The notes: generated by a model from the letters alone, not told the origin. Shown: positions 9,241-35,608, counted from the stretch's first letter. The stretch: DNA of 64,000 nt from a phage (GCA_033648345.1 GCA_033648345.1_4121.1), one strand, 5' to 3'. A program made the numbers and translations.

Positions 9241-9998
9241 CAAAATTTTATTTTGTTTTTTCCAATAGTTCCCCTACCGCGTGGGGATAGTTTCCCCGCA
9301 GTATCTGGAGTTAGATTTTTCTGAATCTGGAATCATTATCTTATAAACTGGGGGCAATGTCAACAGCCTGGACGGATATTTTTAAAAATTTTTTCAGTAC
9401 TGAATTTTGGGCGTAACTATGCACCCGGTGGGCTTGAGTCTTTCTCGACTTGATGGAACTATTATACAGTACTGGAAAAATAAAGCAATACCCTGGAAGC
9501 AAAAAAGTTTTAATTAATTTGCTTGCTATCCTGGGCCGGACTATGGTACTATATTTCAGTACTGAGAAAGTGCGTTTACCTGCTAGGGTGCGGGAGTGTA
9601 TCCTTTTTTTATATCTTGAATTTTGGGCGTAATTCCGCACCCTCTGGGGTTTCCGCTTTCTCGCGTCTATGTAGTAATTATACGCTTTTTCAGGATCAAG
9701 TCAATACCTAAAAACAAAATAATTGAAAATAATTTAACGCGTTTAAACGGCCAGTAAAGCCCTGGAATGATTGGAATGGTGCAAATGTATAGCTTAGGTG
9801 TATTAATGCGTTAGAATGCGTCTGAGGCCGTTTTATGGGGTATAGGGATGATTTGGTGGATTGATTCAGTACTGAATAATAGTACTACTATATAGAAAGA
9901 TAGTTCCCCTGGATGGTTGCAGTACTGAATGATAGTACTGAATAATAGTTCCCCTATATAGAAAGAAAACTATTTTAAAAAGTATTTGTAGAAAGTAC

Positions 9999-11446: not shown

Positions 11447-11476
11447 GCAGTTTACAAATCTTTACAATTGCCGGTA

Positions 11477-11505
11477 TTGACTTATTTTGTCAGTACTGGC
11501 ATAAT
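11477..11505 (+). promoter_or_regulatory. Promoter of convergent pair (candidate small-RNA promoter)
   Basis: TTGACT-17-CATAAT; no ORF downstream, followed by the conserved CCCA-GGGTGC leader motif. Confidence 0.5.
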
Positions 11506-11620
11506 GTATTCATTGGCAGATAAGCCGTAGCCCATAGGGTGCGGGAGTGTATCTATAGAAAAAGTAGTTTATTACAGTTACAATTGTGCACCCGGTGGGT
11601 TAGCTGTTGTCATGGGGTAT

Positions 11621-11649
11621 ATTATGCCAGTACTTGATAATGCTGTCAA
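11621..11649 (-). promoter_or_regulatory. Convergent minus-strand promoter
   Basis: Reverse complement reads TTGACA-17-CATAAT and faces the promoter at 11477. Confidence 0.5.
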
Positions 11650-11695
11650 TACTTTTTTTTACTATTCAGTACTGAAAACTATTTTTAAAAAGTAC

Positions 11696-11723
11696 TTGCA
11701 AACTATGTTTAAAGGCGTATAAT
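11696..11723 (+). promoter_or_regulatory. Class-I early promoter (P1 of tandem pair)
   Basis: TTGCAA-16-TATAAT followed by structured leader ACATCAGGACGGGGAACG... Confidence 0.55.
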
Positions 11724-11813
11724 GTTTTACATCAGGACGGGGAACGAAATAAGTAACTCCCCGTTAAGTAGCCCAGGAGTAAGGCACACGAAAAACTCCC
11801 CTGATAAAATAGT

Positions 11814-12485: not shown

Positions 12486-12497
12486 TTCAAAAAGTAC

Positions 12498-12525
12498 TTG
12501 CAAACTAAGTTTAAAAGCGTATAAT
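12498..12525 (+). promoter_or_regulatory. Class-I early promoter
   Basis: TTGCAA-16-TATAAT. Confidence 0.6.
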
Positions 12526-12575
12526 ACTTTATATCGAGGCGGGGAGTGGTTCCCCGCTCAAACGAGGATTTAAAA

Positions 12576-12815
12576 ATGGCTAGTACTAAAACTTATAACG
12601 GACACAAAAACAAAACTCAATGGAATGTAAGCCTTTGGATTAATAACGGTGAGTCATTGTATCGGCTTGCACAAAGTTGTATCGCACAAAGTAGAACTAA
12701 AGATATTGCAGCGGAATGCATGTACCGCAGATTAAAAGCCAACGGTACTACTACAACGCCGGACGGCTTTAAGTATAGCACTACTGCGATCCGTGCTGCA
12801 ATGGTTGGAATGTAA
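12576..12815 (+). CDS. Hypothetical early protein; paralog of 10537..10776
   Basis: Start moved to MASTKTYNGHK after hairpin GGCGGGGAGTGGTTCCCCGC. Confidence 0.7.
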   Translation: MASTKTYNGHKNKTQWNVSLWINNGESLYRLAQSCIAQSRTKDIAAECMYRRLKANGTTTTPDGFKYSTTAIRAAMVGM

Positions 12816-12873
12816 TATTCAGTACTGTAACAATGGCGGGGAATGGTTCCCGCCTTTATTGAGGGTTTATCTA

Positions 12874-13134
12874 ATGAGTAAAGTAATTAACTATACAGTA
12901 CTAAGCAAGTCATTGTCTATCAGTGAATGCACCGATGGTTTTTGGCTTTATGATGAAACGCGTGGAATGAATTTAGCTATGCGTGTAAAAACTGCTGAGG
13001 CGGCGTATCTTGAGGCACTGGAATACTACCAGGAACGTTTAACGGAAGTAGAAGAAGATTATAAAAGCCTCAAAGCGAAAGTAGATCATTTCGTCGGTCA
13101 ATTCATCGAGGAAGACGACGATAAACAATACTGA
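12874..13134 (+). CDS. Hypothetical early protein (86 aa)
   Basis: Start moved to MSKVINY after hairpin GGCGGGGAATGGTTCCCGCC and SD GAGGG. Confidence 0.6.
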   Translation: MSKVINYTVLSKSLSISECTDGFWLYDETRGMNLAMRVKTAEAAYLEALEYYQERLTEVEEDYKSLKAKVDHFVGQFIEEDDDKQY

Positions 13135-13222
13135 AAAAAAGTACTTGCAATTAGTTTTCAGTACTGTATAATAGTTTACATCAAGTGGAGAAATGGTTCT
13201 CCCTGGTAATGAGGAAAATAAA

Positions 13223-13444
13223 ATGGCTAATATCACTACTCTTTCCCAACTGGAAGCACTGGTTAAATCTATGCGGGAACATGCCGACAAAATCGGCGTA
13301 CAAGATCCAGCCGTTTGCTTCTGCGACGAATTGAATGATGATACCCTTGTAATAGCAGAAGTCCAGGACGTTTCTAACTATTCCTCGCGTTACACTGGCG
13401 GCGTAGCAAATAAAGGCGACTTCTGTTTATACCTTACAAAATAA
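13223..13444 (+). CDS. Hypothetical early protein (73 aa)
   Basis: Start moved to MANITT after hairpin and SD. Confidence 0.6.
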   Translation: MANITTLSQLEALVKSMREHADKIGVQDPAVCFCDELNDDTLVIAEVQDVSNYSSRYTGGVANKGDFCLYLTK

Positions 13445-13449
13445 CAACG

Positions 13450-13480
13450 CGGGGAGATAATAACTCCCCGTTACTTTTTC
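13450..13480 (+). terminator. Rho-independent terminator
   Basis: CGGGGAGATAATAACTCCCCG followed by TTACTTTTT. Confidence 0.6.
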
Positions 13481-13550
13481 AGTACTGAATCATTTAATAG
13501 ACGGATCTATGCACCCGGTGGGTTAGTGACTGTTTCGTCTTGATGTAGTA

Positions 13551-13579
13551 ATTATGCCAGTACTGGATGCAGTTGTCAA
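13551..13579 (-). promoter_or_regulatory. Minus-strand promoter with conserved leader (candidate small RNA)
   Basis: Reverse complement TTGACA-17-CATAAT followed by ACATCAAGACG...CCCACCGGGTGCAT; no ORF. Confidence 0.45.
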
Positions 13580-16086: not shown

Positions 16087-16230
16087 ATGAAAACTTGTCA
16101 ATGTGGTCAGAAATCTATTACGGGTTTAAAGCGGGGCGTTGCTCTTTGCCAGTACCATTATAATTTACAAGTATGGGGTAAAGAATGGGCCGACCAGGTG
16201 GAAGCAGCAAAGAAAGCAAAAAGTAAGTAA
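16087..16230 (+). CDS. Small Cys-containing (zinc-ribbon-like) protein (47 aa, absent from ORF track)
   Basis: Manual translation MKTCQCGQKS...CQYH with SD AAGGAA. Confidence 0.5.
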   Translation: MKTCQCGQKSITGLKRGVALCQYHYNLQVWGKEWADQVEAAKKAKSK

Positions 16231-16311
16231 AAATATTATCACAGTACTATTGACATAGTTTGATAGTACTGGCATAATAGATTTTATCAAGACAACTAAG
16301 AGGAAACAATA
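16221..16311 (+). repeat. Duplicated ~91-bp promoter cassette (copy 1)
   Basis: Near-identical to 16515..16605; contains TTGACA-17-CATAAT and SD AAGAGGAAA. Confidence 0.8.
16250..16278 (+). promoter_or_regulatory. Class-II early promoter
   Basis: TTGACA-17-CATAAT. Confidence 0.6.
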
Positions 16312-16524
16312 ATGGCTATCATCACAAAAATCAAAGTAAACAAATCACTGGTTAAGCTGGAAGAAGTGAAAGAAGGTTATAAAGTATCGTGGTGCGGCAT
16401 GTATCGGATTTTTACAGATGTTGACGATGCAATCAATTACTACACTGACACGGTAAAAAACTTTGTTCGTGCTGATGTGGTTATGGCAGTGGCAACACAC
16501 AAAGCATCGAAAGAAAGTAAGTAA
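16312..16524 (+). CDS. Hypothetical early protein (70 aa)
   Basis: ORF downstream of duplicated promoter cassette. Confidence 0.65.
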   Translation: MAIITKIKVNKSLVKLEEVKEGYKVSWCGMYRIFTDVDDAINYYTDTVKNFVRADVVMAVATHKASKESK

Positions 16525-16605
16525 AAATATTATCACAGTACTATTGACATAGTTTGATAGTACTGGCATAATAGATTTTATCAAGACAACTAAGAGGAAA
16601 TTAAA
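16515..16605 (+). repeat. Duplicated ~91-bp promoter cassette (copy 2)
   Basis: Near-identical to 16221..16311. Confidence 0.8.
16544..16572 (+). promoter_or_regulatory. Class-II early promoter
   Basis: TTGACA-17-CATAAT. Confidence 0.6.
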
Positions 16606-16950
16606 ATGGCTAACATCAACACTATCGCAGCACAAAATATCAACCTGTCTTCTGTTGAAGTTGTACATATTGCCGCTCGGCGTTGGTTCCAGGCTTCATA
16701 TGGTAACACTTATTTCTCTTTAAGTGTAGACGTAGAAATTGATGGTAATTTTATTGAAGTAGTAAACGTGCCGTTCCAATATGGATACGGGGATCATTTT
16801 GACACTGTAGCAATGGAAGAATTTAGCAAGGTTATTAATATGGAAGGTAAAGAGTTTTTACGCGGTTCTTATCTTTCACGTTTTTGCCGTGATAATAATA
16901 TCACTGTTTACAGTTCGGTAACTGATGTTAAACGCAAAAAAGATCTTTAA
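16606..16950 (+). CDS. Hypothetical early protein; paralog of 23466..23789
   Basis: Shared GNTY...F.YGYG...DVKRKKD motifs. Confidence 0.7.
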   Translation: MANINTIAAQNINLSSVEVVHIAARRWFQASYGNTYFSLSVDVEIDGNFIEVVNVPFQYGYGDHFDTVAMEEFSKVINMEGKEFLRGSYLSRFCRDNNITVYSSVTDVKRKKDL

Positions 16951-18510: not shown

Positions 18511-18520
18511 ATGAAAAAAG

Positions 18521-18550
18521 TGGTTGACTTCGGTCAGCCATTTTGCTATT
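18521..18550 (+). terminator. Rho-independent terminator
   Basis: TGGTTGAC-TTCG-GTCAGCCA followed by TTTTGCTATTAT. Confidence 0.7.
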
Positions 18551-18645
18551 ATATATTCATTGAGAGATAGCTCACTAGCCCACCGGGTGCATAAGTGTAT
18601 CTATTATATAAGTATTGAGTACTGAAAACTATTTTTAAAAAGTAC

Positions 18646-18673
18646 TTGCAAACTATCTCAATAAGCGTATAAT
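18646..18673 (+). promoter_or_regulatory. Class-I early promoter
   Basis: TTGCAA-16-TATAAT. Confidence 0.6.
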
Positions 18674-18724
18674 GTTTTACATCGAAAGGGGAAACGGTTT
18701 CCCCTGGTAATAAGGAAACAAATC

Positions 18725-19066
18725 ATGACTATTGCAATTGCTCAATCTAACTTTGAAAATGAAATCATCGCCCAGGCACTGCGTTTAAATGATGGTCGGG
18801 CCGAAATTAATTACGGTTTCAATTCAGGCGGTTGTGAAAAATATCAGTACTTTGTAACTGCTGATGGCGGTGTCCTGGGCATCAATACCGTTATTGTAAA
18901 CATTCAGAAAATTAATTTCAATGATCCAGACGATAGCCAGTTTTACATTGTAGGCGTAGACGTGAACTATGAGGATGACTCACTAACTGATGATCACACT
19001 GGCGAGCGGTTAGAAAGTGCATACGGTGAAGATGATTATCAGTCCGGTCCAGAAGATTTCGAATAA
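18725..19066 (+). CDS. Hypothetical acidic protein (113 aa)
   Basis: ORF after promoter, hairpin GGGGAAACGGTTTCCCC and SD AAGGAA. Confidence 0.7.
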   Translation: MTIAIAQSNFENEIIAQALRLNDGRAEINYGFNSGGCEKYQYFVTADGGVLGINTVIVNIQKINFNDPDDSQFYIVGVDVNYEDDSLTDDHTGERLESAYGEDDYQSGPEDFE

Positions 19067-19079
19067 TATAAAAAATAGT

Positions 19080-19107
19080 TTGACAATAGATTATAGTACT
19101 GTATAAT
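19080..19107 (+). promoter_or_regulatory. Class-II early promoter
   Basis: TTGACA-16-TATAAT. Confidence 0.6.
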
Positions 19108-19157
19108 TAATTACATCAAGGGGAGAATAGTTCTCCCCAACTAAGAGGAAAAAGAAA

Positions 19158-19340
19158 ATGGCTGAATTAATCGCTCGGAATACAATTGCAGGCGTTGAAG
19201 ATGTAACATTATCATATGATTCAGATAAACAAGTTTACGTCGTTCGTTATGGTCTGATTGGTGTTAACGTTGATTATATTGATGAAGCCTTTGAAAAATA
19301 CTTTGAATTTATTAATATGGCTTATAATGATTATCGTTAA
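19158..19340 (+). CDS. Hypothetical early protein (60 aa)
   Basis: Promoter, hairpin GGGGAGAATAGTTCTCCCC, SD AAGAGGA. Confidence 0.65.
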   Translation: MAELIARNTIAGVEDVTLSYDSDKQVYVVRYGLIGVNVDYIDEAFEKYFEFINMAYNDYR

Positions 19341-19348
19341 AAAATAGT

Positions 19349-19376
19349 TTGACAATAGATTATAGTACTGTATAAT
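19349..19376 (+). promoter_or_regulatory. Class-II early promoter
   Basis: TTGACA-16-TATAAT. Confidence 0.6.
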
Positions 19377-19430
19377 AGTTTACATCAAGGGGAGAAAAAC
19401 TTCTCCCCACTAACAGAGAGAGAAAACAAA

Positions 19431-20183: not shown

Positions 20184-20212
20184 TTGACATACAATGCCAG
20201 TACTGGCATAAT
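20184..20212 (+). promoter_or_regulatory. Promoter with conserved leader (candidate small RNA)
   Basis: TTGACA-17-CATAAT followed by ACATCAAGACGAGAACGTCACTAACCCATAGGGTGCACAAATGTAACTAT; no ORF for ~300 bp. Confidence 0.5.
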
Positions 20213-20274
20213 ACTTACATCAAGACGAGAACGTCACTAACCCATAGGGTGCACAAATGTAACTATATAATATC

Positions 20275-22508: not shown

Positions 22509-22518
22509 AAATAATTGA

Positions 22519-22555
22519 AAAAGGGATTGACTCCGGTCAGTCCCTTTGCTATTAT
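22519..22555 (+). terminator. Terminator hairpin with embedded promoter-like TTGACT
   Basis: AAGGGATTGAC-TCCG-GTCAGTCCCTT followed by TGCTATTATAT. Confidence 0.7.
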
Positions 22556-22655
22556 ATACGCATAGAAACAAATTAGCCCACCGGGTGCATAAATGTATCT
22601 ATTGTTTGCTGGTGGCTAGTACTATCAAGTACTGAAAACTATTTTTAAAAAGTAC

Positions 22656-22683
22656 TTGCAAAGTATCACGATAAGCGTATAAT
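22656..22683 (+). promoter_or_regulatory. Class-I promoter P1 with structured leader
   Basis: TTGCAA-16-TATAAT followed by ACATCAGGACGGGGAACGAAACAAGTAACCCCG... Confidence 0.55.
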
Positions 22684-22771
22684 GTTTTACATCAGGACGG
22701 GGAACGAAACAAGTAACCCCGTTAAGTAGTCCAGGAGTAAGACATACGAAAAACTCCCCTGATAAAATAGT

Positions 22772-24926: not shown

Positions 24927-25169
24927 ATGATTACTTTAGAAAAACGTATCAAAGAAACTACATCGCTGGTGGAATTGTTAACAGTACTCAAATGTAAAAC
25001 AACACCATTCAGCACGCCGGACTTTATTAATATGGTTGATGTTAACGGTCGTTATCGCATTGCAGTAGAACATGGAACAGCGAAAGTATTCAGTACTAAA
25101 AACACTAAGGAAGTGATTCACGCGGTTAGTGTGAAAAAAGTGGTTGCCATTGATAGTAAAGTACTGTAA
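24927..25169 (+). CDS. Hypothetical protein (80 aa)
   Basis: ORF after duplicated promoter cassette. Confidence 0.6.
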   Translation: MITLEKRIKETTSLVELLTVLKCKTTPFSTPDFINMVDVNGRYRIAVEHGTAKVFSTKNTKEVIHAVSVKKVVAIDSKVL

Positions 25170-25200
25170 TATAGTTTCATTAACTCAAGGAGTAAATGCA

Positions 25201-25785
25201 ATGCGTAATTATACTAAATTCATCCGTACACTGTCAGAAATGGAAACCAACAAAGAGATCCTTTCAGCTTGTCGGTTAGCTGGCCTGGAGATCATCGGTG
25301 CTGGTTCTTCCCGTATAGTATTCGCTTTAAATGATCGGTTAGTGATTAAGGTCGCGAATTGTGATGCGGGTGTAGAACAAAATGAAACTGAATGTAAGGT
25401 ATGGAATTTTTTAGACTATGACCGCCCTCAGTTGAAACAGTACTTTGCAAAGGTGCATATGCATTTATGCGATCCTGATAATATGTTTATCGTTATGGAT
25501 CGGTTGAGTACTGCAAGCAAAGGCAGTGTGAAGCACGTTAACGCGTGCAATGAATTAAAGTACAATATTAAACGTAATGCAATCGAACGCCAGCACCGCT
25601 TTGCTGATGCACTACAACACGTTGATGATACATTATCAACACTAACGATAAGAGATATCAGAAAACAGAATATCGGCCAGGATCGTAATGGCCTTATTAA
25701 AGTACTTGATTACGGTTTAACCAGCAATATCTGGAATCAGTACTATAAAAAGCGTGATGTGGCAGCAAGTAAAGTAACACGATAA
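25201..25785 (+). CDS. Protein-kinase-like protein (Ser/Thr kinase fold motifs)
   Basis: Gly-rich loop IGAGSSRIV plus Lys VIKVA; catalytic-loop-like RDIRKQNIG; DYG in place of DFG. Start moved to MRNYTKF after SD AAGGAG. Confidence 0.5.
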   Translation: MRNYTKFIRTLSEMETNKEILSACRLAGLEIIGAGSSRIVFALNDRLVIKVANCDAGVEQNETECKVWNFLDYDRPQLKQYFAKVHMHLCDPDNMFIVMDRLSTASKGSVKHVNACNELKYNIKRNAIERQHRFADALQHVDDTLSTLTIRDIRKQNIGQDRNGLIKVLDYGLTSNIWNQYYKKRDVAASKVTR

Positions 25786-25796
25786 AAAAAGATTAA

Positions 25797-25833
25797 AAAA
25801 GGGATTGACTCCGGTCAGTCCCTTTGCTATTAT
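25797..25833 (+). terminator. Terminator hairpin with embedded promoter-like TTGACT
   Basis: Same element as 22519. Confidence 0.7.
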
Positions 25834-25925
25834 ATATTCATTGAGAGATAACTCACTGACCCATAGGGTGCGGAAGTGTATCTATTATATAAGCATTCAG
25901 TACTGAAAACTATTTTAAAAAAGTA

Positions 25926-25954
25926 CTTGCATTGTACTTAGAATCAAGTATAAT
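25926..25954 (+). promoter_or_regulatory. Class-I early promoter
   Basis: TTGCAT-17-TATAAT. Confidence 0.6.
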
Positions 25955-26008
25955 GTTTTATATCGAGAGGGGGAAATGGTTCTCCCTGGTACATTAAGGA
26001 ATAAAATC

Positions 26009-26416
26009 ATGACTACTACTAATCAAGCTCGGTCCATCGCCAACGATAAAAATCATGCTGCAATGGTCGCTGGTTACATTGAAGCTATGCAATTCAGTAC
26101 TGTACACAATGAGAACGGCGAATACCTGGAAGATTATGAATTATCAGAGCAAGCCCATCAAGCGGCAGTGATTGCATGTTCACGTTTCCTTGCTGTACAT
26201 GGTGAAGATATGGAAACAGTACAAAAACACCATAATCCTGATTATACTTATAGTCATGCAGGTCATGATCTCTTTCTTACTCGCGAAGGTCACGGCACTG
26301 GTTTTTGGGATCGTGATATCGGTCACTATGATGATATATTCACTAAGTACTGCGAAGAAATCAACGTTTGCGATCCCTATGTAGGCGATGATAATCTAAT
26401 CTATATGGGCGAATAA
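26009..26416 (+). CDS. Hypothetical His-rich protein (135 aa)
   Basis: Start moved to MTTTNQ after hairpin and SD AAGGAA. Confidence 0.65.
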   Translation: MTTTNQARSIANDKNHAAMVAGYIEAMQFSTVHNENGEYLEDYELSEQAHQAAVIACSRFLAVHGEDMETVQKHHNPDYTYSHAGHDLFLTREGHGTGFWDRDIGHYDDIFTKYCEEINVCDPYVGDDNLIYMGE

Positions 26417-27949: not shown

Positions 27950-27977
27950 TTGACAGTACTAACCAGTAATGTATAAT
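27950..27977 (+). promoter_or_regulatory. Class-II early promoter
   Basis: TTGACA-16-TATAAT. Confidence 0.6.
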
Positions 27978-28032
27978 GTTTTACATAGAGCGGGGGAATA
28001 GTTCTCCCGCCAATAGTTTGGAGTTAAACATT

Positions 28033-28233
28033 ATGTCTATCGCTATCGCCCTGGTTGAAGTACTGAAAGAAGCTAAAGCCAACCAGATCGACGTAAAGAT
28101 CCAGGAACTACAAAACGGCTTAATCGGCTGTACTTGTACCGCTGGTGGAGCGGCAGACTATCGAGAACACGAATCACTCGAATCACTGGTTCGGTATCTT
28201 ACCATGATCGTTGATGATTGGAGAATCATCTAA
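28033..28233 (+). CDS. Hypothetical protein (66 aa)
   Basis: Start moved to MSIAIALVEV after hairpin GCGGGGGAATAGTTCTCCCGC and SD GGAG. Confidence 0.6.
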   Translation: MSIAIALVEVLKEAKANQIDVKIQELQNGLIGCTCTAGGAADYREHESLESLVRYLTMIVDDWRII

Positions 28234-28247
28234 CAAAAAAAGAATAA

Positions 28248-28284
28248 AAAAGGGATTGACTCCGGTCAGTCCCTTTGCTATTAT
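28248..28284 (+). terminator. Terminator hairpin with embedded promoter-like TTGACT
   Basis: Same element as 22519. Confidence 0.7.
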
Positions 28285-28480
28285 ATACGCATAGACAAAA
28301 ACTAGCCCACAGGGTGCATAGGTGTATCTAAAATATATAGTTAATAACGGTGAGTAACTATCTGCTGGTGGAGTGAAAACTATTAATAAAAAAAACTATT
28401 GACAAAGTATATCAGTACTGCAATAATGTATCTCGTAGGGCGGCAATGGTGCGACGGCCCACAAAGTTAGGAGATTCAAA

Positions 28481-30317: not shown

Positions 30318-30515
30318 ATGCGTATTTTAACTAAAGAACAGCACCACGAAAGACTTATCAATAACATGGCTATGATAATGTATAAGTCCCATGACCGTGG
30401 TATTGCATATAAGCGTGAATTGGTTATGGCACTATTCATTGGAACTAACTTTCAGGAAAGGTATGTCAAGGATTGGATTTGGTATTTAATTGAAGATATA
30501 ACGAGTAAACTATGA
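30318..30515 (+). CDS. FamB small paralog
   Basis: C-terminal IGTNFQERYVKDWIWYLIEDI. Confidence 0.65.
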   Translation: MRILTKEQHHERLINNMAMIMYKSHDRGIAYKRELVMALFIGTNFQERYVKDWIWYLIEDITSKL

Positions 30516-30712
30516 AAATGCGTATTTTAAATAAAGAAGAATATCAATCACTGTTACGTAAAAACTACGTAAAGATTTACAACACAGACACACACGTAGA
30601 ACGAATGGAGTTATACCTTTTGATTACATTGGGAACAAACTATCAGGGTAGATGGGTGTGGCAATATATGGATACATTGAAAAATAAAATATTGTCCACG
30701 AGGAAACAATGA
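30512..30712 (+). CDS. FamB small paralog
   Basis: LGTNYQGRWV; ATGA overlap. Confidence 0.65.
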   Translation: MKMRILNKEEYQSLLRKNYVKIYNTDTHVERMELYLLITLGTNYQGRWVWQYMDTLKNKILSTRKQ

Positions 30713-30918
30713 AAACTATAACACGAACCCAATCATTAGGTCTTATCTTGAAATACATGGACTTAATGTTGGATATCAGCAAAGACCTTCCTAAAACTGA
30801 AATCCAAGTTGCAAGAGCAGAGATCCGCATGTTAGCTGTACTGAACACAAACCATCAGGAAGAGTATGTTGACGATTGGATTCGATTTTTAATAGAAGAT
30901 ATTAAGAGTAAACTATGA
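30709..30918 (+). CDS. FamB small paralog
   Basis: LNTNHQEEYVDDWIRFLIEDI. Confidence 0.65.
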   Translation: MKTITRTQSLGLILKYMDLMLDISKDLPKTEIQVARAEIRMLAVLNTNHQEEYVDDWIRFLIEDIKSKL

Positions 30919-31130
30919 ATATCATTACAAACTCAAATCAATATACCGAACGCGTCGCTGCCAGACAACTTGAAATTCTCATAGTATATGAAGAGACTGA
31001 TGATTTGAACTTAGCATTAGTATTGGAAAATGATATACTATTGGGTGCATTCCTCGGCACAGATTATCAGGAGCACTTCTTGAATGAGTATATAATTGCA
31101 CTCCAGAAATACATTAAGAGCAAACTATGA
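30915..31130 (+). CDS. FamB small paralog
   Basis: LGTDYQEHFL. Confidence 0.65.
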   Translation: MNIITNSNQYTERVAARQLEILIVYEETDDLNLALVLENDILLGAFLGTDYQEHFLNEYIIALQKYIKSKL

Positions 31131-31345
31131 AACATTTAAGTAACTCCGAGAAGAATAAAATTATCATTGCTGCAATAAACAAATATTTTACACTTCCTCA
31201 CACAGAAGGTTTATGTGTAAGGGAACACAGGATAAACACCACCGATATACGCATGATGGCTGTACTGGGGACGAACTTTCAGGAAGAGTATGTTGTTGCA
31301 CACATAGTTGCCCTCACTGATCTAATAAGGGACAAATGCAAATGA
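31127..31345 (+). CDS. FamB small paralog
   Basis: LGTNFQEEYV. Confidence 0.65.
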   Translation: MKHLSNSEKNKIIIAAINKYFTLPHTEGLCVREHRINTTDIRMMAVLGTNFQEEYVVAHIVALTDLIRDKCK

Positions 31346-31560
31346 AAGACATAAACACTCAAGAATATCTTAAACGATTAGAACAAGGGAAGAACTTTAG
31401 ACTTCAAGTTTACGATGATGAATCACTAACATCCAATGAAAAGTATGTTATACTAACAGACTCAACATTAATACCATTTGTAGGAACAAACTATCAGGAG
31501 GTTATGGTAGACAACCACATCACGGCCTTAAAATGTCATGTCAGGGATTTAGGTAAATGA
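31336..31560 (+). CDS. FamB small paralog
   Basis: VGTNYQEVMV. Confidence 0.65.
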   Translation: MQMKDINTQEYLKRLEQGKNFRLQVYDDESLTSNEKYVILTDSTLIPFVGTNYQEVMVDNHITALKCHVRDLGK

Positions 31561-31814
31561 GACGCTTAACACAAGATGAATATGAAACTATAGTTCGTAA
31601 ACTAACCCCCGTCGCCAGTATAGTCTACGATGACCCCAGCCTTACATGGAACCAAATGCGAGCTAAAGTTAATGAGCTATGGTTGCTGTACTTTATGGGG
31701 ACTCAATATCAAGATAAGTTTTGCACAGAATATGTCGAACAATTAATGAATGTTATACAGGATAAACTAGATGATTATTGGCTCACAAAACATGAAGACT
31801 TTATCAGGAGTTGA
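31557..31814 (+). CDS. FamB small paralog
   Basis: MGTQYQDKFC. Confidence 0.65.
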   Translation: MRRLTQDEYETIVRKLTPVASIVYDDPSLTWNQMRAKVNELWLLYFMGTQYQDKFCTEYVEQLMNVIQDKLDDYWLTKHEDFIRS

Positions 31815-32043
31815 GTATCAAACTGCCCTATTCTCTTTAATCCATACCCTTAGAAAAAACAATGCCTTACATGGTGCACCTGAAGTGGATGTTATCAACG
31901 GTGAACTTTATCTTATGAAATTCATTGGAACAAACTATCAAGATCTGTTCATTCAACGATACTTGGCAGCATTAAGAAACCAAATCCAATATAAAACCCA
32001 GAGAGCCAAAAAAGAATGGAATAAACAATGCGACAAAGAATGA
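31792..32043 (+). CDS. FamB small paralog
   Basis: IGTNYQDLFI; start uncertain (track 31771). Confidence 0.55.
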   Translation: MKTLSGVEYQTALFSLIHTLRKNNALHGAPEVDVINGELYLMKFIGTNYQDLFIQRYLAALRNQIQYKTQRAKKEWNKQCDKE

Positions 32044-32279
32044 ACCACAAAATGTATTGTAAACTATTGCAGACACTGGCACAGAAACACTATGACACGG
32101 TATCTGAAATATTACCCTATGATATCATGCGTTTACTTCACTGTGAGGCCGAGATGCTTGTACTGATGACAGGCACTGATAAAAAAGCAATTGCCAAATC
32201 AATAGATATGTTCATCGAAGCACAATGTCAACACATTAGAACCGAGATATGGAGACGAGAGAATGATAACACTAAATGA
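32028..32279 (+). CDS. FamB-like small paralog (divergent)
   Basis: TGTDKKAIAKSIDMFIE variant of the motif. Confidence 0.5.
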   Translation: MRQRMNHKMYCKLLQTLAQKHYDTVSEILPYDIMRLLHCEAEMLVLMTGTDKKAIAKSIDMFIEAQCQHIRTEIWRRENDNTK

Positions 32280-32478
32280 GTTTCAGTATCATTGGAGGTT
32301 ACAAGCTATAAGAAGGAAAGTTGTTAGTATTTCTTTAGACAAGTCTATTGCACAAGAGGACAAATGTGTTATAATAGCTGAAATGAAGTTGGGTGTATTC
32401 GTAGGAACAAACTATCAAAACATCTACACTGACGTATTGTTAAGTGCCTTACGTAACAAGGTGATATCAAAAGAATGA
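32263..32478 (+). CDS. FamB small paralog
   Basis: VGTNYQNIYT. Confidence 0.65.
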   Translation: MITLNEFQYHWRLQAIRRKVVSISLDKSIAQEDKCVIIAEMKLGVFVGTNYQNIYTDVLLSALRNKVISKE

Positions 32479-32693
32479 GAAAATTAATAGGTTACGAATA
32501 TGTTAAGCTTCTGAAAACATGTGCCAACAGAAGAGTAAAGATTCAATCTGATAAGAGCATCCCTGCCAACCTAAAACATGCAATGGTAGCTGAACTCTAT
32601 GCAGGGGCACTCATAGGAACAAACTATCAACAAATGTATATAGACATGTGGGTTGATGCATTAGTCAAGGTGATCCAAAGTAAATGCAAATGA
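32475..32693 (+). CDS. FamB small paralog
   Basis: IGTNYQQMYI. Confidence 0.65.
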   Translation: MRKLIGYEYVKLLKTCANRRVKIQSDKSIPANLKHAMVAELYAGALIGTNYQQMYIDMWVDALVKVIQSKCK

Positions 32694-32932
32694 TTAATTT
32701 AAGTAAATCTGAATATAAAGAACGCCAAGCAAAAATCTTACCTAAACTTAATGAAATCCATTTCGGTGAAGTAAACAAACACGAAAATAAGATGATTATG
32801 AAGCGTGAGACAAAGCTATGTGCATTCTTAGGAACTAACTATCAGGAGTATTATGTAGAGGAATATATAATTACACTTAAGAAATACATTGGGAGTAAAC
32901 TAAGTAAATGTACGAGAAATGCAAATGATTAA
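32684..32932 (+). CDS. FamB small paralog
   Basis: LGTNYQEYYV; MQMINLSK N-terminus. Confidence 0.65.
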   Translation: MQMINLSKSEYKERQAKILPKLNEIHFGEVNKHENKMIMKRETKLCAFLGTNYQEYYVEEYIITLKKYIGSKLSKCTRNAND

Positions 32933-33137
32933 TTTAAGTAAAGATGAATATTATGATCGTCTTGCAAAAACTTATCCAGCACGTAACGCCGTTTATAATA
33001 GTAACATTATTGAACGCTCAAAGAAGTTGATTGTAGTAAATGAGATTAAGATGCTTTCAGTCTTAGGAACAAACTATCAAGAGAATGCTGTACTGTTGTT
33101 AATTGATGCCCTCAAGAGAGAGATACAAAGTAAATGA
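32919..33137 (+). CDS. FamB small paralog
   Basis: LGTNYQENAV; MQMINLSK N-terminus. Confidence 0.65.
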   Translation: MQMINLSKDEYYDRLAKTYPARNAVYNSNIIERSKKLIVVNEIKMLSVLGTNYQENAVLLLIDALKREIQSK

Positions 33138-33358
33138 TTAATTTATCTTTCCATGAATATCAAAAACGTTTAAATGCATCCAGAGATATAAGGATTCAAA
33201 TATTCAATAACAAAAGATTGAAGCCTGATATCAGAAAAATCAAAATTATAGAAGCAGAGTTATGCAACTTTCTAGGGACCAACTATCAGGCAGGTAAGGT
33301 AAAAAACTATCTTAGAGAACTAATGAATAGTATTGAAAATAAATGCGAGGGTAATTAA
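33134..33358 (+). CDS. FamB small paralog
   Basis: LGTNYQAGKV. Confidence 0.65.
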   Translation: MINLSFHEYQKRLNASRDIRIQIFNNKRLKPDIRKIKIIEAELCNFLGTNYQAGKVKNYLRELMNSIENKCEGN

Positions 33359-33359
33359 C

Positions 33360-33623
33360 ATGAAAATGATTAATTTAAGTAAAGATGAATATACCGAGCG
33401 TATGACAAAAATTACGCACAAACGTAATACAATCTATCACAACCCAGAAATTCAACACAGTAAGAAGATGATTATGATGCGTGAGTTAAAGATGGGTGTA
33501 TTCTTAGGAACAAACTATCAAGATACAGAAGTAAATCGCTTAATCGCGGAGTTACTACTGGAAATCAAAGGTAAGCTGTACTTTTATCAAATGACCCGTC
33601 CACTAAGGTGTACTGATCGATGA
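33360..33623 (+). CDS. FamB small paralog
   Basis: LGTNYQDTEV; start moved to MKMINLSK. Confidence 0.6.
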   Translation: MKMINLSKDEYTERMTKITHKRNTIYHNPEIQHSKKMIMMRELKMGVFLGTNYQDTEVNRLIAELLLEIKGKLYFYQMTRPLRCTDR

Positions 33624-33862
33624 ATATTGTGAATAACATCAGAATAGCAGAAAGATTTGATAGAATTGGGGAAGCTCTGAGAAGATACGATAAAGAATAT
33701 GGTCATTTAAGCTTTTCTATAGAAAAGAGATATGAACTTGAAGCAGAGTTTAAAATGCAGTTCCTCTTAGGTACACAGTATCAAAACCAATATGTAGAAA
33801 AATGGATTTCACTTTTAATCCAGACAATTTACGTAAGGAACATTAAATGCAAAATGAAATGA
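33620..33862 (+). CDS. FamB small paralog
   Basis: LGTQYQNQYV. Confidence 0.65.
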   Translation: MNIVNNIRIAERFDRIGEALRRYDKEYGHLSFSIEKRYELEAEFKMQFLLGTQYQNQYVEKWISLLIQTIYVRNIKCKMK

Positions 33863-34107
33863 TATACTTAACACATGATGAGTTAACAGAAAGACTAGAT
33901 AAATCCAAAAAACTTACAAATAAACTTCCTCACAACACAAACCAAACCCCAGCGGAAAGGAGTGCAGAAGTTTTATTCCAAACATTACCATACCTTCTTG
34001 GAACTGATAGGCAAGAGTATCACATTGAACGTATAATTAAATATCTCAAAATTACTATTAAGGAAAAAGTAAATGCAAATGCAAATGAAATACTTAACAG
34101 ACGATGA
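33847..34107 (+). CDS. FamB small paralog
   Basis: LGTDRQEYHI. Confidence 0.65.
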   Translation: MQNEMIYLTHDELTERLDKSKKLTNKLPHNTNQTPAERSAEVLFQTLPYLLGTDRQEYHIERIIKYLKITIKEKVNANANEILNRR

Positions 34108-34330
34108 GTTAAAAGAACGATTAATTAAATCCAGAAAACTTACAAATCAACTTCCAATCGACACAAACAAGTCACATGCCGAAAGGAGTGCAGAAGTTTT
34201 ATACATTCAACTCCTGTACTTTCTTGGAACTGACAGACAAGAGTATTACATTGAAAGTATGCTTCGATATCTTAAATTCTCTATAAAGGAAAAGATACAT
34301 GCTCAAGAATTTAAAAATCCTAACAGTTAA
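34073..34330 (+). CDS. FamB small paralog
   Basis: LGTDRQEYYI; near-duplicate of 33847..34107. Confidence 0.65.
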   Translation: MQMQMKYLTDDELKERLIKSRKLTNQLPIDTNKSHAERSAEVLYIQLLYFLGTDRQEYYIESMLRYLKFSIKEKIHAQEFKNPNS

Positions 34331-34556
34331 TGAATATCATAAGATTGTAATGAAAACTAATAGTGCAATTTCTAAAAAATCAAACCCAAAGTACATACTG
34401 GAACACACATTCGAAGAACGCCAATTAGCTCTAGTTGAAGCAAAACTTCTTGCACTCCTAGGAACAAACTATCAGGAAGAATACATTAGAAAACTAATAT
34501 ACCTTTTAACTAAACACATCAGGAAAAGAAAAAAGCATGAAGCACTTGACAGATGA
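34299..34556 (+). CDS. FamB small paralog
   Basis: LGTNYQEEYI. Confidence 0.65.
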   Translation: MLKNLKILTVNEYHKIVMKTNSAISKKSNPKYILEHTFEERQLALVEAKLLALLGTNYQEEYIRKLIYLLTKHIRKRKKHEALDR

Positions 34557-34767
34557 TGAACATGGGCTTATAGTAATGGATGTAATCAACATCGAATACA
34601 AAAAGTTGATACGCTACCGTTGTTATGAAGATAAGCAACTCGTTCTAGCAGAACAGAAGTTGTTTCGACTCTTAAACACAAACTTCCAAGCACAATACGA
34701 AGAATCGTATTTGTACCTACTGTCGAGGAAAGCAAAAAGAGATTATGAAAATTTTAAGCCACAGTGA
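34537..34767 (+). CDS. FamB small paralog
   Basis: LNTNFQAQYE. Confidence 0.6.
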   Translation: MKHLTDDEHGLIVMDVINIEYKKLIRYRCYEDKQLVLAEQKLFRLLNTNFQAQYEESYLYLLSRKAKRDYENFKPQ

Positions 34768-34960
34768 ACAAACAGAATTGTTAATCTTTAATACAAGTAA
34801 ATTCTTAAACATAACATTGTCTGATATAGATGATGATGAAAAAGAGTTACTTAGAGCAGATTTAAGAGTTCTTTTATATATTGGAACTAACTTCCAAGAG
34901 CAATTCGTTGAGGACTACATCGATGAACTTAAAGAATCTGTACTGAGAACATGCAAATGA
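34745..34960 (+). CDS. FamB small paralog
   Basis: IGTNFQEQFV. Confidence 0.65.
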   Translation: MKILSHSEQTELLIFNTSKFLNITLSDIDDDEKELLRADLRVLLYIGTNFQEQFVEDYIDELKESVLRTCK

Positions 34961-35184
34961 AAATCCTTTCACCAAGTGAATACCACGAACTATTAAGTAG
35001 TTTAATTCTAAAATTGTATATAGCAAAGACCACAGATTTACCTGATGAAGAAAAAAATATTCTAATGAGTGAAATCTATGTTAATTCTACCCTAGGGACT
35101 AACTATCAAGAATGTAATATTAATGATTACATCAAAGAACTAAAAAGGTTTATCCAATGCAAATGCGAATCATTACCGAAGTAG
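34951..35184 (+). CDS. FamB small paralog
   Basis: LGTNYQECNI. Confidence 0.65.
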   Translation: MQMKILSPSEYHELLSSLILKLYIAKTTDLPDEEKNILMSEIYVNSTLGTNYQECNINDYIKELKRFIQCKCESLPK

Positions 35185-35408
35185 AATACCTAACAATCAT
35201 AAATGGACTGTTTTCGAAGTTATTTGCCATTAACACATCAAAACTTCCAGATACTGATAAAATTATTAAGTTAAATGAAATCTACGTTCAAGCTACTCTA
35301 GGAACAAACTATCAAGAAGCCAATGTGTATAATTACATTAATACACTCAAAAGGGTAATAAAATTAAAATGCACAGACAGCACAAACAGCCAATACACAA
35401 ACCCCTAG
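35157..35408 (+). CDS. FamB small paralog
   Basis: LGTNYQEANV. Confidence 0.65.
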   Translation: MQMRIITEVEYLTIINGLFSKLFAINTSKLPDTDKIIKLNEIYVQATLGTNYQEANVYNYINTLKRVIKLKCTDSTNSQYTNP

Positions 35409-35608
35409 GAACAGCAGAATACATTGAACTAATGGCTGCAAACTTCTCATCCTTTAAGAAACTGATGCAAGAATCAAATAATGATTTAGAATATCATATC
35501 AAAAGTTCAGATTTAAGAATGCTTCTCACCCTAGACACAGATTCCCAAGAGCGATTTGTCAATGAGCATATTAGAGCACTTTTAAATGGCATCAGGGATA
35601 AACTATGA
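35369..35608 (+). CDS. FamB small paralog
   Basis: LDTDSQERFV. Confidence 0.6.
   Translation: MHRQHKQPIHKPLGTAEYIELMAANFSSFKKLMQESNNDLEYHIKSSDLRMLLTLDTDSQERFVNEHIRALLNGIRDKL

What the first reader, a model, noticed from the sequence alone, without database searches (positions are those of the whole stretch)
22519..22610. Terminator hairpin that embeds a promoter -35 (four near-identical copies)
The element AAAAAGGGATTGACTCCGGTCAGTCCCTTTGCTATTATAT occurs at 22519, 25797 and 28248, with a variant at 18521. It forms a strong hairpin followed by a T-rich tract, so it is a plausible intrinsic terminator. Its loop and 3' arm also spell TTGACT-17-TATTAT, a near-consensus promoter, so termination of the upstream operon and initiation of the downstream transcript are physically coupled. 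A ~27-nt conserved insert (GGGTGCATAAATGTATCTATT..) follows each copy.
Basis: seen in the sequence. Interest (0 to 1): 0.55.

Follow-up and report, generated by a model that had tools for sequence, protein, structure and literature searches.

The report
Terminator-promoter cassette driving a conserved leader RNA
In the early region of a giant E. coli phage, a hairpin that probably ends one transcript also contains the -35 box of the next promoter; this layout is already known from T4-like phages, but here the promoter always drives a conserved small RNA motif that nobody appears to have described.

Summary
Three exact 40-nt copies lie at 22518, 25796 and 28247, with a compensated variant at 18515. 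The window comes from an Asteriusvirus (121Q/PBECO4/fEgEco12-like) jumbo coliphage, and the copies sit in the zone matching its about 21-kb terminal repeat.

Each copy starts 12-22 nt after a stop codon. It forms a 12-bp hairpin with a UNCG loop and spells TTGACT-17-TGnTATTAT.

Across five Rak2-like phages:
- The outer stem covaries.
- TTGAC is invariant, and its partner drifts only to G·U.
- The hairpin occurs only where a co-directional gene ends just upstream.

This supports an RNA-level 3'-end hairpin fused to a sigma-70 promoter. The U-tract is weak, so termination may be partial. The design matches the published PeSL cassettes of T4-type phages.

The "27-nt insert" is not an insert. It belongs to a roughly 50-nt 5' leader: a covarying hairpin followed by rCCCAyAGGGUGC-N5-UnUaUCUAU. 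This leader lies at a fixed distance from a promoter in 49 manually inspected copies. The covariance model matches 88 sites, on both strands. Some copies form stand-alone sRNA-like units of about 100 nt. It has no Rfam match and occurs only in Rak2-like phages. Its function is unknown.

The parts
22518..22557 (+). Composite element, copy 2 (the reported one). Hairpin 22520-22547 (12 bp, UCCG loop), -35 TTGACT 22527-22532, -10 TATTAT 22550-22555 preceded by TGC. Predicted start is A22562.
25796..25835 (+). Composite element, copy 3. Hairpin 25798-25825, -35 25805-25810, -10 25828-25833. Predicted start about 25840. It follows ORF 25144..25785.
28247..28286 (+). Composite element, copy 4. Hairpin 28249-28276, -35 28256-28261, -10 28279-28284. 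Predicted start about 28291. It follows ORF 27976..28233.
18515..18554 (+). Composite element, variant copy 1. Hairpin 18517-18544 with compensatory stem changes and a UUCG loop, -35 18524-18529, -10 18547-18552. Predicted start about 18559.
11468..11505 (+). Fifth hairpin-in-promoter of different sequence: GCCGGTATTGAC-TTATTTT-GTCAGTACTGGC (-18.5 kcal/mol) embedding TTGACT-17-CATAAT. It drives the same leader motif.
18557..18605 (+). Leader RNA motif: 5' hairpin A (UGAG-AGAUAG-CUCA) followed by AGCCCACCGGGUGCAUAAGUGUAUCUAUU.
22560..22603 (+). Leader RNA motif with hairpin A deleted (AUAGAAACAAAUU), followed by the block. A partial anti-block (GCUGGUGGCUA) lies at 22608-22618.
25838..25886 (+). 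Leader RNA motif (hairpin A plus block).
28289..28332 (+). Leader RNA motif with hairpin A deleted, followed by the block.
11510..11557 (+). Leader RNA motif. It is the + member of a convergent pair.
11573..11610 (-). Leader RNA motif, the - member of the convergent pair. Its own promoter is TTGACA-17-CATAAT at about 11630-11658. Together with 11510-11557 it gives a long RNA hairpin (-45 kcal/mol).
20220..20267 (+). Leader RNA motif behind promoter TTGACA-17-CATAAT (20184-20212). No GC hairpin is present.
13438..13579 (-). Stand-alone sRNA-like unit on the minus strand. It has -35 at 13579-13574, -10 at 13556-13551 and the leader motif at 13543-13496. It then has AGUACUG and a hairpin at 13470-13450, which also serves as terminator of + ORF 13193..13444. 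The predicted RNA is about 105 nt.
9406..9670 (.). Cluster of three leader-motif units (- at 9406-9453, + with the block at 9586, - at 9622-9670). They lie in a non-coding stretch about 1.1-1.4 kb from the position matching the left genome end of fEgEco12.
18639..18706 (+). Second promoter cassette (P2) of the same intergenic region: AAAGTACTTGCAA..GTATAATG, then a 5'-UTR hairpin and SD, before ORF 18725..19066. Equivalent P2 cassettes lie at 22649-22716, 25920-25987 and 28399-28427.

Best explanation
The element is a compact punctuation cassette of the early, host-RNA-polymerase-transcribed region of a Rak2-like (Asteriusvirus) jumbo phage. It matches the terminal direct repeat of fEgEco12.

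Read as RNA from upstream, it makes a 12-bp hairpin closed by a UNCG tetraloop, followed by a U-rich tract. This ends or attenuates the transcript of the preceding small gene and leaves a stable 3' hairpin.

Read as duplex DNA, the same bases form a strong sigma-70 promoter:
- The -35 box (TTGACT) is the end of the 5' arm plus the first loop base.
- The spacer is the loop, the 3' arm and the U-tract.
- The -10 box is TGnTATTAT.

Transcription restarts about 7 nt further on, at the A of a conserved CA. The new transcript begins with a conserved leader of about 50 nt: a 5' hairpin, then rCCCAyAGGGUGC-N5-UnUaUCUAU. It then runs through a second early promoter into the next gene.

What is shown by sequence comparison: the hairpin, the promoter, the fixed register between promoter and leader, and the rule that the hairpin is present only after a co-directional gene.

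What is inferred: actual termination and its efficiency, the exact start site, and the role of the leader. My best guess for the leader is a cis-acting 5' RNA domain read by a conserved factor. That factor could be RNA polymerase itself, or a phage or host protein. It would set the stability or processivity of early transcripts. The same module also exists as free sRNAs of about 100 nt.
For: Identity and context:
- Megablast places the window in Asteriusvirus phages at 89-97% identity.
- Window 8342 aligns to position 26 of fEgEco12, whose 20,993-bp terminal repeat was confirmed experimentally (PMC13070987).

Hairpin:
- It folds at -21.3 kcal/mol (z = -5.5) on the sense strand, against -13.4 kcal/mol on the antisense strand.
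- In 20 in-register copies from five phages, 93% of cells are paired.
- Three outer pairs change on both sides (GC to UA, AU or CG).
- TTGAC is invariant, and its partners change only to G·U or U·G.
- 14 of 20 loops are UNCG (read from the alignment).

Link to gene ends:
- 27 of 49 module copies have the hairpin, and all 27 are on the gene strand.
- In 26 of those 27, a co-directional ORF ends 36 nt or less upstream.
- 22 copies lack the hairpin; 16 of them are on the minus strand (Fisher p = 1.4e-6 and 2.2e-8).

Promoter:
- All 49 copies have a -35/-10 pair with a 17-18 bp spacer.
- The -10 box ends 27-35 nt before GGGTGC.
- By my count, TTGACT is found in 18 of 27 hairpin copies. It is found in 1 of 22 copies without a hairpin, where TTGACA is the commonest form. 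This fits the U needed to open a UNCG loop.

Leader:
- All four pairs of hairpin A covary (89 double-sided cells, 94.7% paired).
- In my own scan, 40 of 49 copies have a hairpin of 4 bp or more, against a shuffled mean of 23 and a maximum of 33.
- The covariance model finds 55 copies in five phage loci. It finds 88 copies when IMG/VR loci are added.

Precedent:
- PeSL stem-loops overlapping the -35 box terminate, and their promoters fire, in reporter assays (PMC2839356).
Against: - No 3'- or 5'-end data exist for any phage of this group.
- The U-tract is only UUU before GC. A d'Aubenton-Carafa-type score gives +3.7 and -7.4 for the two hairpin types, against +25 and +35 for two plain terminators in the same window. 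The formula was recalled from memory, so this is indicative only.
- The three exact copies may be recent gene conversion and are not independent evidence.
- The alignment used for hairpin A was fitted to the model, which inflates pairing.
- A second strong promoter lies about 100 nt downstream, so the promoter in the hairpin is not needed to express the next gene.
- The leader on its own is no more stable than shuffled sequence (z = -0.9 and +0.5).
- Its core admits two mutually exclusive helices, CCC/GGG and GGUG/yrUC, and neither has strong covariation.
Confidence: 0.7

Rival explanations
1. The inverted repeat is a DNA-level control site. It would act as an operator for a dimeric regulator, or as a cruciform, that gates the promoter whose -35 box it contains. 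It would not be an RNA terminator.
For: - The palindrome is centred on the -35 box, a classic operator position.
- Another palindrome, AGTACT, flanks the -35 and -10 boxes of many early promoters here. DNA-binding control of these promoters is therefore plausible.
Against: - The outer arms differ freely between copies (GGGG/CCCC, GTAC/GTAC, AAGG/CCTT, GGGA/TCCC, GTGG/CCAT) while pairing is kept. That marks structure, not a protein recognition sequence.
- Many positions are G·U, which pair only in sense-strand RNA. The antisense fold is 8 kcal/mol weaker.
- 14 of 20 loops are UNCG, an RNA-specific motif.
- The repeat is absent from copies of the same promoter that have no upstream gene.
Confidence: 0.07
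2. The hairpin is a 3'-end stabiliser or processing signal. It would block exonuclease on read-through or Rho-terminated RNA, or mark a nuclease site, rather than act as an efficient intrinsic terminator. Transcription mostly continues through it.
For: - The U-tract is weak and interrupted, and the tail score is marginal compared with plain terminators nearby.
- Stable hairpins are also a general feature of 5' ends in this region. RNA-end protection therefore seems to be under selection.
Against: - The position right after stop codons, the upstream A-tract and the 3' U-rich tract are conserved in all five phages.
- The consensus scan lists all four copies as terminator-like.
- PeSL stem-loops of similar build terminated as well as rrnB T1 in vivo (PMC2839356).
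- The two roles are not exclusive.
Confidence: 0.2
3. The conserved block after the promoter acts at the DNA level. It would be a promoter for the phage-encoded sigma factor or a protein-binding site, and not part of an RNA.
For: - Conservation is mainly in sequence: CCC, A and GGGUGC are almost invariant.
- The block ends in a -10-like TATCTAT(A/T).
- These phages encode their own sigma factors (PMC5259590).
Against: - Orientation and distance to an upstream sigma-70 promoter are fixed in 49 of 49 copies on both strands.
- The stretch between promoter and block keeps a hairpin through more than 12 different compensatory stems.
- In minus-strand units a terminator follows the block by only 20-50 nt. 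Transcripts started at the block would then be pointlessly short, whereas transcripts from the upstream promoter would be RNAs of about 100 nt.
- The R·U closing pair of the CCC/GGG helix alternates between A-U and G·U.
- The published middle (TGAAACG..TATA) and late (ATAAATA) motifs are different.
Confidence: 0.1
4. The repeats are chiefly recombination substrates, that is, mobile regulatory cassettes as proposed for PeSLs. The overlap of hairpin and promoter is a by-product of compaction, without functional coupling.
For: - All indel breakpoints between the window and fEgEco12 fall in repeated promoter cassettes.
- The four copies are mosaics. Copy 25796 has the hairpin of 22518 and 28247 but the leader of 18515, with the switch inside the shared TGCTATTATATA.
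Against: - The breakpoints found lie in the second (P2) promoter cassettes, not in the hairpin element.
- Conservation of hairpin, promoter and leader across genera with about 25% genome identity argues for function.
- This reading complements the main one rather than excluding it.
Confidence: 0.3

Closest known systems
PeSL (promoter-early stem-loop) cassettes of T4-type phages RB49, phi1, KVP40 and nt-1 (Arbiol et al. 2010, PMC2839356; Comeau et al. 2014, PMC4122927)
   Same: - A strong sigma-70-like early promoter with an AT-rich upstream region is fused to a stem-loop that follows the stop codon of the preceding small gene.
- Published subclasses include stem-loops that overlap the -35 box.
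- Many copies occur in a region of small orphan genes.
- The copies mark indel breakpoints between close relatives.
   Different: - The phage lineage is different: Rak2-like jumbo phages, not Tevenvirinae.
- The hairpin promoter does not sit directly before a Shine-Dalgarno sequence and ORF. It drives a conserved non-coding leader and is followed by a second promoter.
- Stems here are mixed-sequence with UNCG loops, rather than polyG/polyC.
- The breakpoints seen here fall in the hairpin-less P2 cassettes.
Canonical intrinsic (Rho-independent) terminators
   Same: A GC-containing stem with a stable tetraloop, an upstream A-tract, a U-rich 3' tract, and a position just after a stop codon.
   Different: The U-tract is broken after three U by GC, because the same bases must supply the TGn extended -10. 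The predicted strength is well below plain terminators at 15298 and 24303 in the same window.
Promoter-proximal antitermination RNAs (HK022 put; lambda nut boxB). This is a works-like candidate for the leader only, recalled from general knowledge.
   Same: - A short structured RNA made at a fixed, close distance from an early promoter.
- Hairpin A has a purine-rich loop (GAGAAA, GCGAAA, AGAUAA) reminiscent of boxB loops.
- Some copies are followed by terminators before the next gene (GAP32 8855).
   Different: - No sequence similarity is known, and no boxA is present.
- Most copies have no terminator to overcome before the gene.
- Minus-strand copies end at terminators as short RNAs.
- No partner protein has been identified.
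Abundant ncRNAs in the terminal repeat of the related jumbo phage PA5oct (ncRNA001 and ncRNA002; PMC7318152)
   Same: Non-coding transcripts encoded in the long terminal repeat of a phage from the wider Rak2-related clade, highly expressed from early infection.
   Different: They are not homologous. The covariance model finds nothing in the PA5oct locus, and the sequences differ.
Bacterial trans-acting sRNA genes with a conserved 5' domain and an intrinsic terminator
   Same: The minus-strand units have a promoter, a conserved 5' domain and a terminator hairpin with a U-tail, giving about 100 nt. They are conserved between orthologous genes in four genera.
   Different: - No target complementarity was found in the window.
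- The same domain also heads mRNAs.
- There is no evidence for Hfq or ProQ binding.

Membership tests
PeSL cassettes (T4-type phages) | [quoted passage not shown] | tested here: met
   TTGACT-17-TATTAT with TG and an A-rich 5' flank in all four copies. The promoter is present in 49 of 49 related copies.
PeSL cassettes (T4-type phages) | Stable stem-loop within or overlapping the promoter, downstream of the preceding gene's stop codon | tested here: met
   A 12-bp stem overlaps the -35 box, at -16 to -21 kcal/mol, 12-22 nt after the stop codons. Covariation is shown.
PeSL cassettes (T4-type phages) | Cassette ends directly in the Shine-Dalgarno sequence and start codon of the next ORF | tested here: not met
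   A 50-nt conserved leader and one or two further promoters lie between the element and the next start codon, 170-280 nt away.
PeSL cassettes (T4-type phages) | Copies mediate gene gain, loss or replacement between close relatives | tested here: inconclusive
   All four indel junctions against fEgEco12 lie in repeated promoter cassettes, but these are of the P2 type. Mosaicism among the four hairpin copies suggests exchange.
PeSL cassettes (T4-type phages) | Terminator and promoter activity demonstrated in reporter assays | not testable with these tools
   Requires cloning into a lacZ fusion vector, as in PMC2839356.
PeSL cassettes (T4-type phages) | Host genome is a T4-type (Tevenvirinae) phage | tested here: not met
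   The window is an Asteriusvirus-like jumbo phage.
Intrinsic terminator | GC-containing hairpin immediately followed by a U-rich tract | tested here: inconclusive
   The hairpin is strong. The tail UUUGCUAUUAU passes the simple scan but scores marginally (+3.7 and -7.4) against +25 and +35 for plain terminators.
Intrinsic terminator | RNA 3' ends map 7-9 nt after the stem | not testable with these tools
   No Term-seq or RNA-seq data for Rak2-like phages were found in the papers searched.
Sigma-70 promoter | -35 and -10 hexamers with a 17±1 bp spacer, conserved among paralogues and orthologues | tested here: met
   The Yersinia phage record annotates an overlapping extended -10 signal, and a -35 signal offset from TTGACT, at the homologous site.
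Any Rfam 15 family (for the leader RNA) | Covariance-model match | tested here: not met
   cmscan of 8000-32000 on both strands at E ≤ 1 returned only a chance Trp_leader hit at 15189, and nothing at any of the 11 motif copies.
put/nut-type processive antitermination RNA (for the leader) | Promoter-proximal structured RNA that lets polymerase read through downstream terminators | tested here: inconclusive
   The position is fixed and promoter-proximal and one hairpin is proven. However, only a few copies have a terminator between the leader and the gene. Read-through cannot be tested here.

The most novel reading that the evidence does not exclude
The promoter inside the hairpin exists to make a previously undescribed regulatory RNA domain. 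The domain is a 5' hairpin followed by rCCCAyAGGGUGC-N5-UnUaUCUAU.

What the data show about it:
- Rak2-like jumbo phages carry it in several copies (at least 11 in this window).
- It sits at the extreme 5' end of early transcripts on both strands.
- It also occurs as free sRNAs of about 100 nt.
- It also occurs as convergent pairs, which fold into 25-bp hairpins next to the genome end that probably enters the cell first.

Its core can adopt two mutually exclusive helices, so it could be a switch. It might act on the transcribing polymerase (put-like antitermination or anti-Rho). Alternatively it might be read by a conserved phage or host protein that times the shut-off or stabilisation of early RNA.
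Probability: 0.45. Interest if true: 0.65.

Novelty: new variant of a known kind. Interest (0 to 1): 0.5.

Why it matters
- The PeSL design, in which one stretch of DNA serves as both terminator and promoter, now extends from T4-type phages to the Rak2-like jumbo phages.
- This case offers a clean example of dual coding. The non-consensus T of TTGACT is explained by the UNCG loop, and the broken U-tract is explained by the TGn extended -10.
- More usefully, it points to an unannotated RNA family. That family is multi-copy, conserved across at least five phage genera and tied to the first promoters that enter the cell.
- The family is directly testable by Northern blot, 5'/3'-end mapping, in vitro transcription and pull-downs. 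Almost nothing is known about early gene control in this phage group.

Tried and rejected
- **Rfam:** no family matches any copy.
- **tRNA or tmRNA:** none in the window.
- **PA5oct ncRNAs:** no homology by eye or by covariance model.
- **Copy of a host sequence:** the exact block pattern gives 12 scattered single matches in unrelated bacteria and archaea. My own estimate of the chance expectation is about 35. None is in Enterobacterales, and the model rejects all of them.
- **Metagenome scan:** a looser pattern returned mostly chance hits. The model confirmed only 10 loci, some with several or convergent copies as in the Rak2-like loci.
- **Small ORF in the leader:** no ATG or SD is present, and the hairpin covariation is incompatible with coding (read).
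- **Shine-Dalgarno or anti-SD mimic (GGAGGUG):** present in some copies only. The window copies read AUAAGUG.
- **tRNA 3'-end or anticodon-stem mimic:** the ACCA and the loop size are not conserved.
- **Block as a phage-sigma promoter:** rejected for the reasons given under the rival explanations.
- **Host target search by BLAST against E. coli genomes:** not attempted. Seed-length matches cannot reach significance in a 28-Gb database.
- **Literature:** the papers on CBB, RaK2, phAPEC6 and fEgEco12 do not describe these elements.

Full report
**1. What is there**

The 40-mer AAAAAGGGATTGACTCCGGTCAGTCCCTTTGCTATTATAT occurs exactly three times on the + strand, at 22518, 25796 and 28247. No match appeared in 100 shuffles. 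A variant lies at 18515-18554. There the outer stem has changed from GGGA/UCCC to GUGG/CCAU, and the loop from UCCG to UUCG.

As RNA, the element folds into a 12-bp stem with a tetraloop:
- -21.3 kcal/mol, z = -5.5, for the main type.
- -15.9 kcal/mol, z = -4.6, for the variant.
- Only -13.4 kcal/mol for the opposite strand, because a U·G pair becomes a C·A mismatch.

The consensus scan lists all four copies as TTGACT-17-TATTAT with TG before the -10, and also as terminator-like sites.

The -35 hexamer is the end of the 5' arm plus the first loop base. The loop, the 3' arm and the T-tract form the spacer.

**2. Where it is**

Megablast places the window in Asteriusvirus jumbo coliphages such as fEgEco12, 121Q, PBECO4 and phAPEC6, at 89-97% identity.
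- Window 8342 aligns to position 26 of fEgEco12.
- fEgEco12 has an experimentally confirmed direct terminal repeat of 20,993 bp (PMC13070987).
- The zone from about 8.3 to 29 kb therefore corresponds to that repeat.

This zone is packed with small + strand ORFs. It contains more than 22 copies of a second early-promoter cassette, which I call P2: AAAGTACTTGCAA..GTATAATGTTTTACATC, then a 5'-UTR hairpin and a Shine-Dalgarno sequence.

Each of the four elements starts 12-22 nt after a stop codon. Each is followed, about 100 nt later, by a P2 cassette and then a gene.

**3. The element is old and widespread in one phage clade**

A 116-nt query covering the hairpin, the promoter and the downstream block matches 3-10 places per genome at 73-83% identity. 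The matching genomes are:
- Cronobacter phage GAP32
- Pectobacterium phage CBB
- Klebsiella phages RaK2, K64-1 and Muenster
- Salmonella phages Munch and 7t3
- Yersinia phage fHe-Yen9-03
- Serratia phage BF
- Erwinia phages

I fetched the early regions of GAP32, Yen9-03, RaK2 and CBB. Together with the window they yielded 49 copies on both strands.

**4. The hairpin is an RNA-level feature linked to gene ends**

I aligned 20 hairpins that share the same register. The results were:
- 93% of cells pair.
- Three outer pairs change on both sides (GC to UA, AU or CG; 11 cells, 0 of 500 shuffles as high).
- The five inner pairs keep TTGAC invariant, and their partners change only to wobble (G-C to G·U, U-A to U·G).
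- 14 of 20 loops are UNCG.

Wobble pairs and UNCG loops make sense only in sense-strand RNA.

The -35 box reads TTGACT in 18 of 27 hairpin copies. It reads TTGACT in 1 of 22 copies without a hairpin, where TTGACA is the commonest form (my count). The non-consensus T is the U that opens the UNCG loop.

Of the 49 copies of the promoter module:
- 27 have a stable hairpin over the -35 box.
- All 27 are on the gene strand.
- 26 of them have a co-directional ORF ending 36 nt or less upstream.
- 22 copies have no hairpin, and 16 of those are on the minus strand (Fisher p = 1.4e-6 and 2.2e-8).

The hairpin is therefore an add-on that appears exactly where a transcript needs an end.

There is a caveat. 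The U-tract is UUU, then GC, then AU-rich sequence, because those bases must also provide the TGn extended -10. A tail/hairpin score gives +3.7 and -7.4, against +25 and +35 for the plain terminators at 15298 and 24303. I recalled the formula from memory, so this is indicative only. Termination may be partial.

**5. The '27-nt insert' is the core of a conserved leader RNA**

In all 49 copies a sigma-70 promoter lies at a fixed distance. The -10 box ends 31-35 nt before GGGTGC, or 27-28 nt where a small hairpin has been deleted.

The transcript would start at the A of a conserved CA, and then contains two parts.

*Hairpin A.* This is a 4-5 bp hairpin with a purine-rich loop (GAGAAA, GCGAAA, AGAUAA, AGAACAA).
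- The stem sequence differs between copies. Examples are GCCA/UGGC, GGC/GCC, AGCA/UGCU, GACG/CGUC, GGAG/CUCC, UCCA/UGGA and UGAG/CUCA. There are 30 distinct stems.
- 40 of 49 copies have a hairpin of 4 bp or more, against a shuffled mean of 23 and a maximum of 33.

*The block.* This reads yUAr-CCC-AyA-GGGUGC-(GGAGA or AUAAG)-U-n-U-a-UCUAU.

I built a covariance model from nine copies. It finds 55 matches in the five loci and none in a PA5oct locus. On the model-fitted alignment:
- All four pairs of hairpin A show changes on both sides (89 cells, 94.7% paired).
- The CCC/GGG helix is 98% paired, with only two compensated cells (CCU/AGG).

An alternative helix, GGUG with (U/C)(A/G)UC, is also fully compatible. 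Columns 73, 74 and 76 show only pair-preserving transitions. It shares the G's with the first helix, so the two exclude each other. The structure of the core is unresolved.

Two of the four reported copies (22560 and 28289) lack hairpin A.

**6. The leader module exists without the hairpin and without a gene**

- Plus-strand copies are followed by a gene 76-440 nt away, usually after another promoter. Minus-strand copies have no ORF downstream.
- Several minus-strand copies are followed within 20-50 nt by a terminator.
- An alignment of six such units from GAP32, CBB, Yen9-03, RaK2 and the window shows a shared order. The order is promoter, hairpin A, block, AGUACUG, an A-rich stretch, then a terminator hairpin.
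- In the window, this unit runs from about 13544 to about 13438 on the minus strand. It uses the hairpin 13450-13470 that also terminates + ORF 13193..13444.
- Other copies form convergent pairs. One example is 11510-11557 (+) with 11573-11610 (-). Its RNA would fold into a long hairpin (-45 kcal/mol, z = -3.6).
- Such pairs lie within about 0.3-4 kb of the start of the GAP32, CBB and Yen9-03 records. In the window they lie about 1.1-1.4 kb from the position matching the fEgEco12 left end, at 9406-9670.

**7. Distribution and prior knowledge**

- The exact block pattern occurs in IMG/VR only in contigs of 345-378 kb, plus two fragments.
- In 185,579 bacterial and archaeal genomes there are 12 scattered single matches, about what chance predicts. 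None is in Enterobacterales.
- The model rejects all 12 and accepts only 10 metagenome loci, some with several or convergent copies as in the Rak2-like loci.
- Rfam 15 has no match.
- The papers on CBB, RaK2, phAPEC6 and fEgEco12 do not mention these elements.
- The GAP32 record annotates only a 'stem_loop' at the homologous site. The Yen9-03 record annotates only an overlapping extended -10 signal and an offset -35 signal there.
- PA5oct, a distant relative, has abundant ncRNAs in its terminal repeat (PMC7318152), but they are not homologous.

**8. Comparison with known systems**

The overlap of terminator and promoter is the PeSL design of T4-type phages. In those phages, stem-loops may overlap the -35 box, and both terminator and promoter activities were shown with reporters (PMC2839356; PMC4122927).

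The proposed role of PeSLs in modular shuffling is echoed here. All indel junctions against fEgEco12 fall in repeated promoter cassettes (12568/13138, 16296/16925, 19167/19339 and 25948-26016). These are P2 cassettes, however, not the hairpin elements. The four hairpin copies are mosaics of two hairpin types and two leader types.

The differences from PeSLs are:
- another phage lineage;
- a conserved non-coding leader and a second promoter between the element and the gene;
- mixed-sequence stems with UNCG loops.

**9. Verdict**

The hairpin and the promoter are both real, selected features that share bases, but termination efficiency is unproven and probably modest.
- The principle is already known.
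- The new content is the leader/sRNA motif that the promoter drives. Its function is unknown.
- My preferred reading is a cis-acting 5' RNA domain recognised by a conserved factor. I hold this reading with low confidence.

Noticed in passing
whole window; also loci L001-L004 and L021: The palindrome AGTACT occurs 286 times in 64 kb against about 20 expected, a 14.7-fold excess. The next palindromic hexamer reaches 2.6-fold. The same 18-24-fold excess is seen in the GAP32, Yen9-03, RaK2, CBB and fEgEco12 loci, but not in PA5oct (0.5-fold). Density is 3.6 per kb inside ORFs and 8.5 per kb outside. In early promoters it overlaps the -35 box (AAAGTACTTGCAA) and abuts the -10 box (CAGTACTGTATAAT). 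It also follows the leader block. No literature was found.
   Followed up: partly
window 12491-13205, 16228-16925, 19073-19409, 25920-26016: Every indel junction between the window and phage fEgEco12 lies in a repeated early-promoter (P2) cassette. Small genes are therefore gained or lost as promoter-flanked modules, as proposed for PeSLs.
   Followed up: partly
window 13438-13579 (-): A stand-alone unit on the minus strand has a promoter, a 5' hairpin, the conserved block and a terminator. The predicted RNA is about 105 nt, and it shares a bidirectional terminator with the upstream + gene. Units with the same layout occur in four genera.
   Followed up: partly
window 9380-9720: A non-coding stretch about 1.1-1.4 kb from the position matching the fEgEco12 left genome end holds three leader-motif units with their own promoters, in back-to-back and convergent arrangement. 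Similar convergent pairs lie near the start of the GAP32, CBB and Yen9-03 records. The convergent RNAs would be self-complementary and mutually complementary.
   Followed up: partly
window 16250, 16544, 19662, 27628 (+): A second sequence class of promoter-in-hairpin occurs here: CAGTACTATTGACATAGTTTGATAGTACTG followed by GCATAAT or TATAAT, at -12 to -14 kcal/mol. The stem is built from AGTACT-containing arms. The copies at 16228-16295 and 16522-16589 are identical over 68 nt.
   Followed up: no
window 11660-11760 and 22620-22720 (to about 11820 and 22780): A 101-nt repeat (89% identical) contains a P2 promoter, a 5' hairpin and an SD-like CCAGGAGTAAG, followed by ACG instead of a start codon. 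Another promoter follows. It looks like a decayed gene start retained between tandem promoters.
   Followed up: no
window 30500-36200 and 44000-55000: These are arrays of paralogous small genes with spacings of 210-480 nt. They carry conserved motifs such as GGAACAAACTATCAA and TACTTCCAG.ACAGTACT (repeat families D5 and D7-D13).
   Followed up: no
L001 8830-9230 (GAP32): In GAP32, one hairpin-promoter-leader unit is followed by about 320 nt without an annotated gene and then by a strong terminator. The next promoter and gene come after that. This suggests a non-coding RNA of about 400 nt.
   Followed up: no
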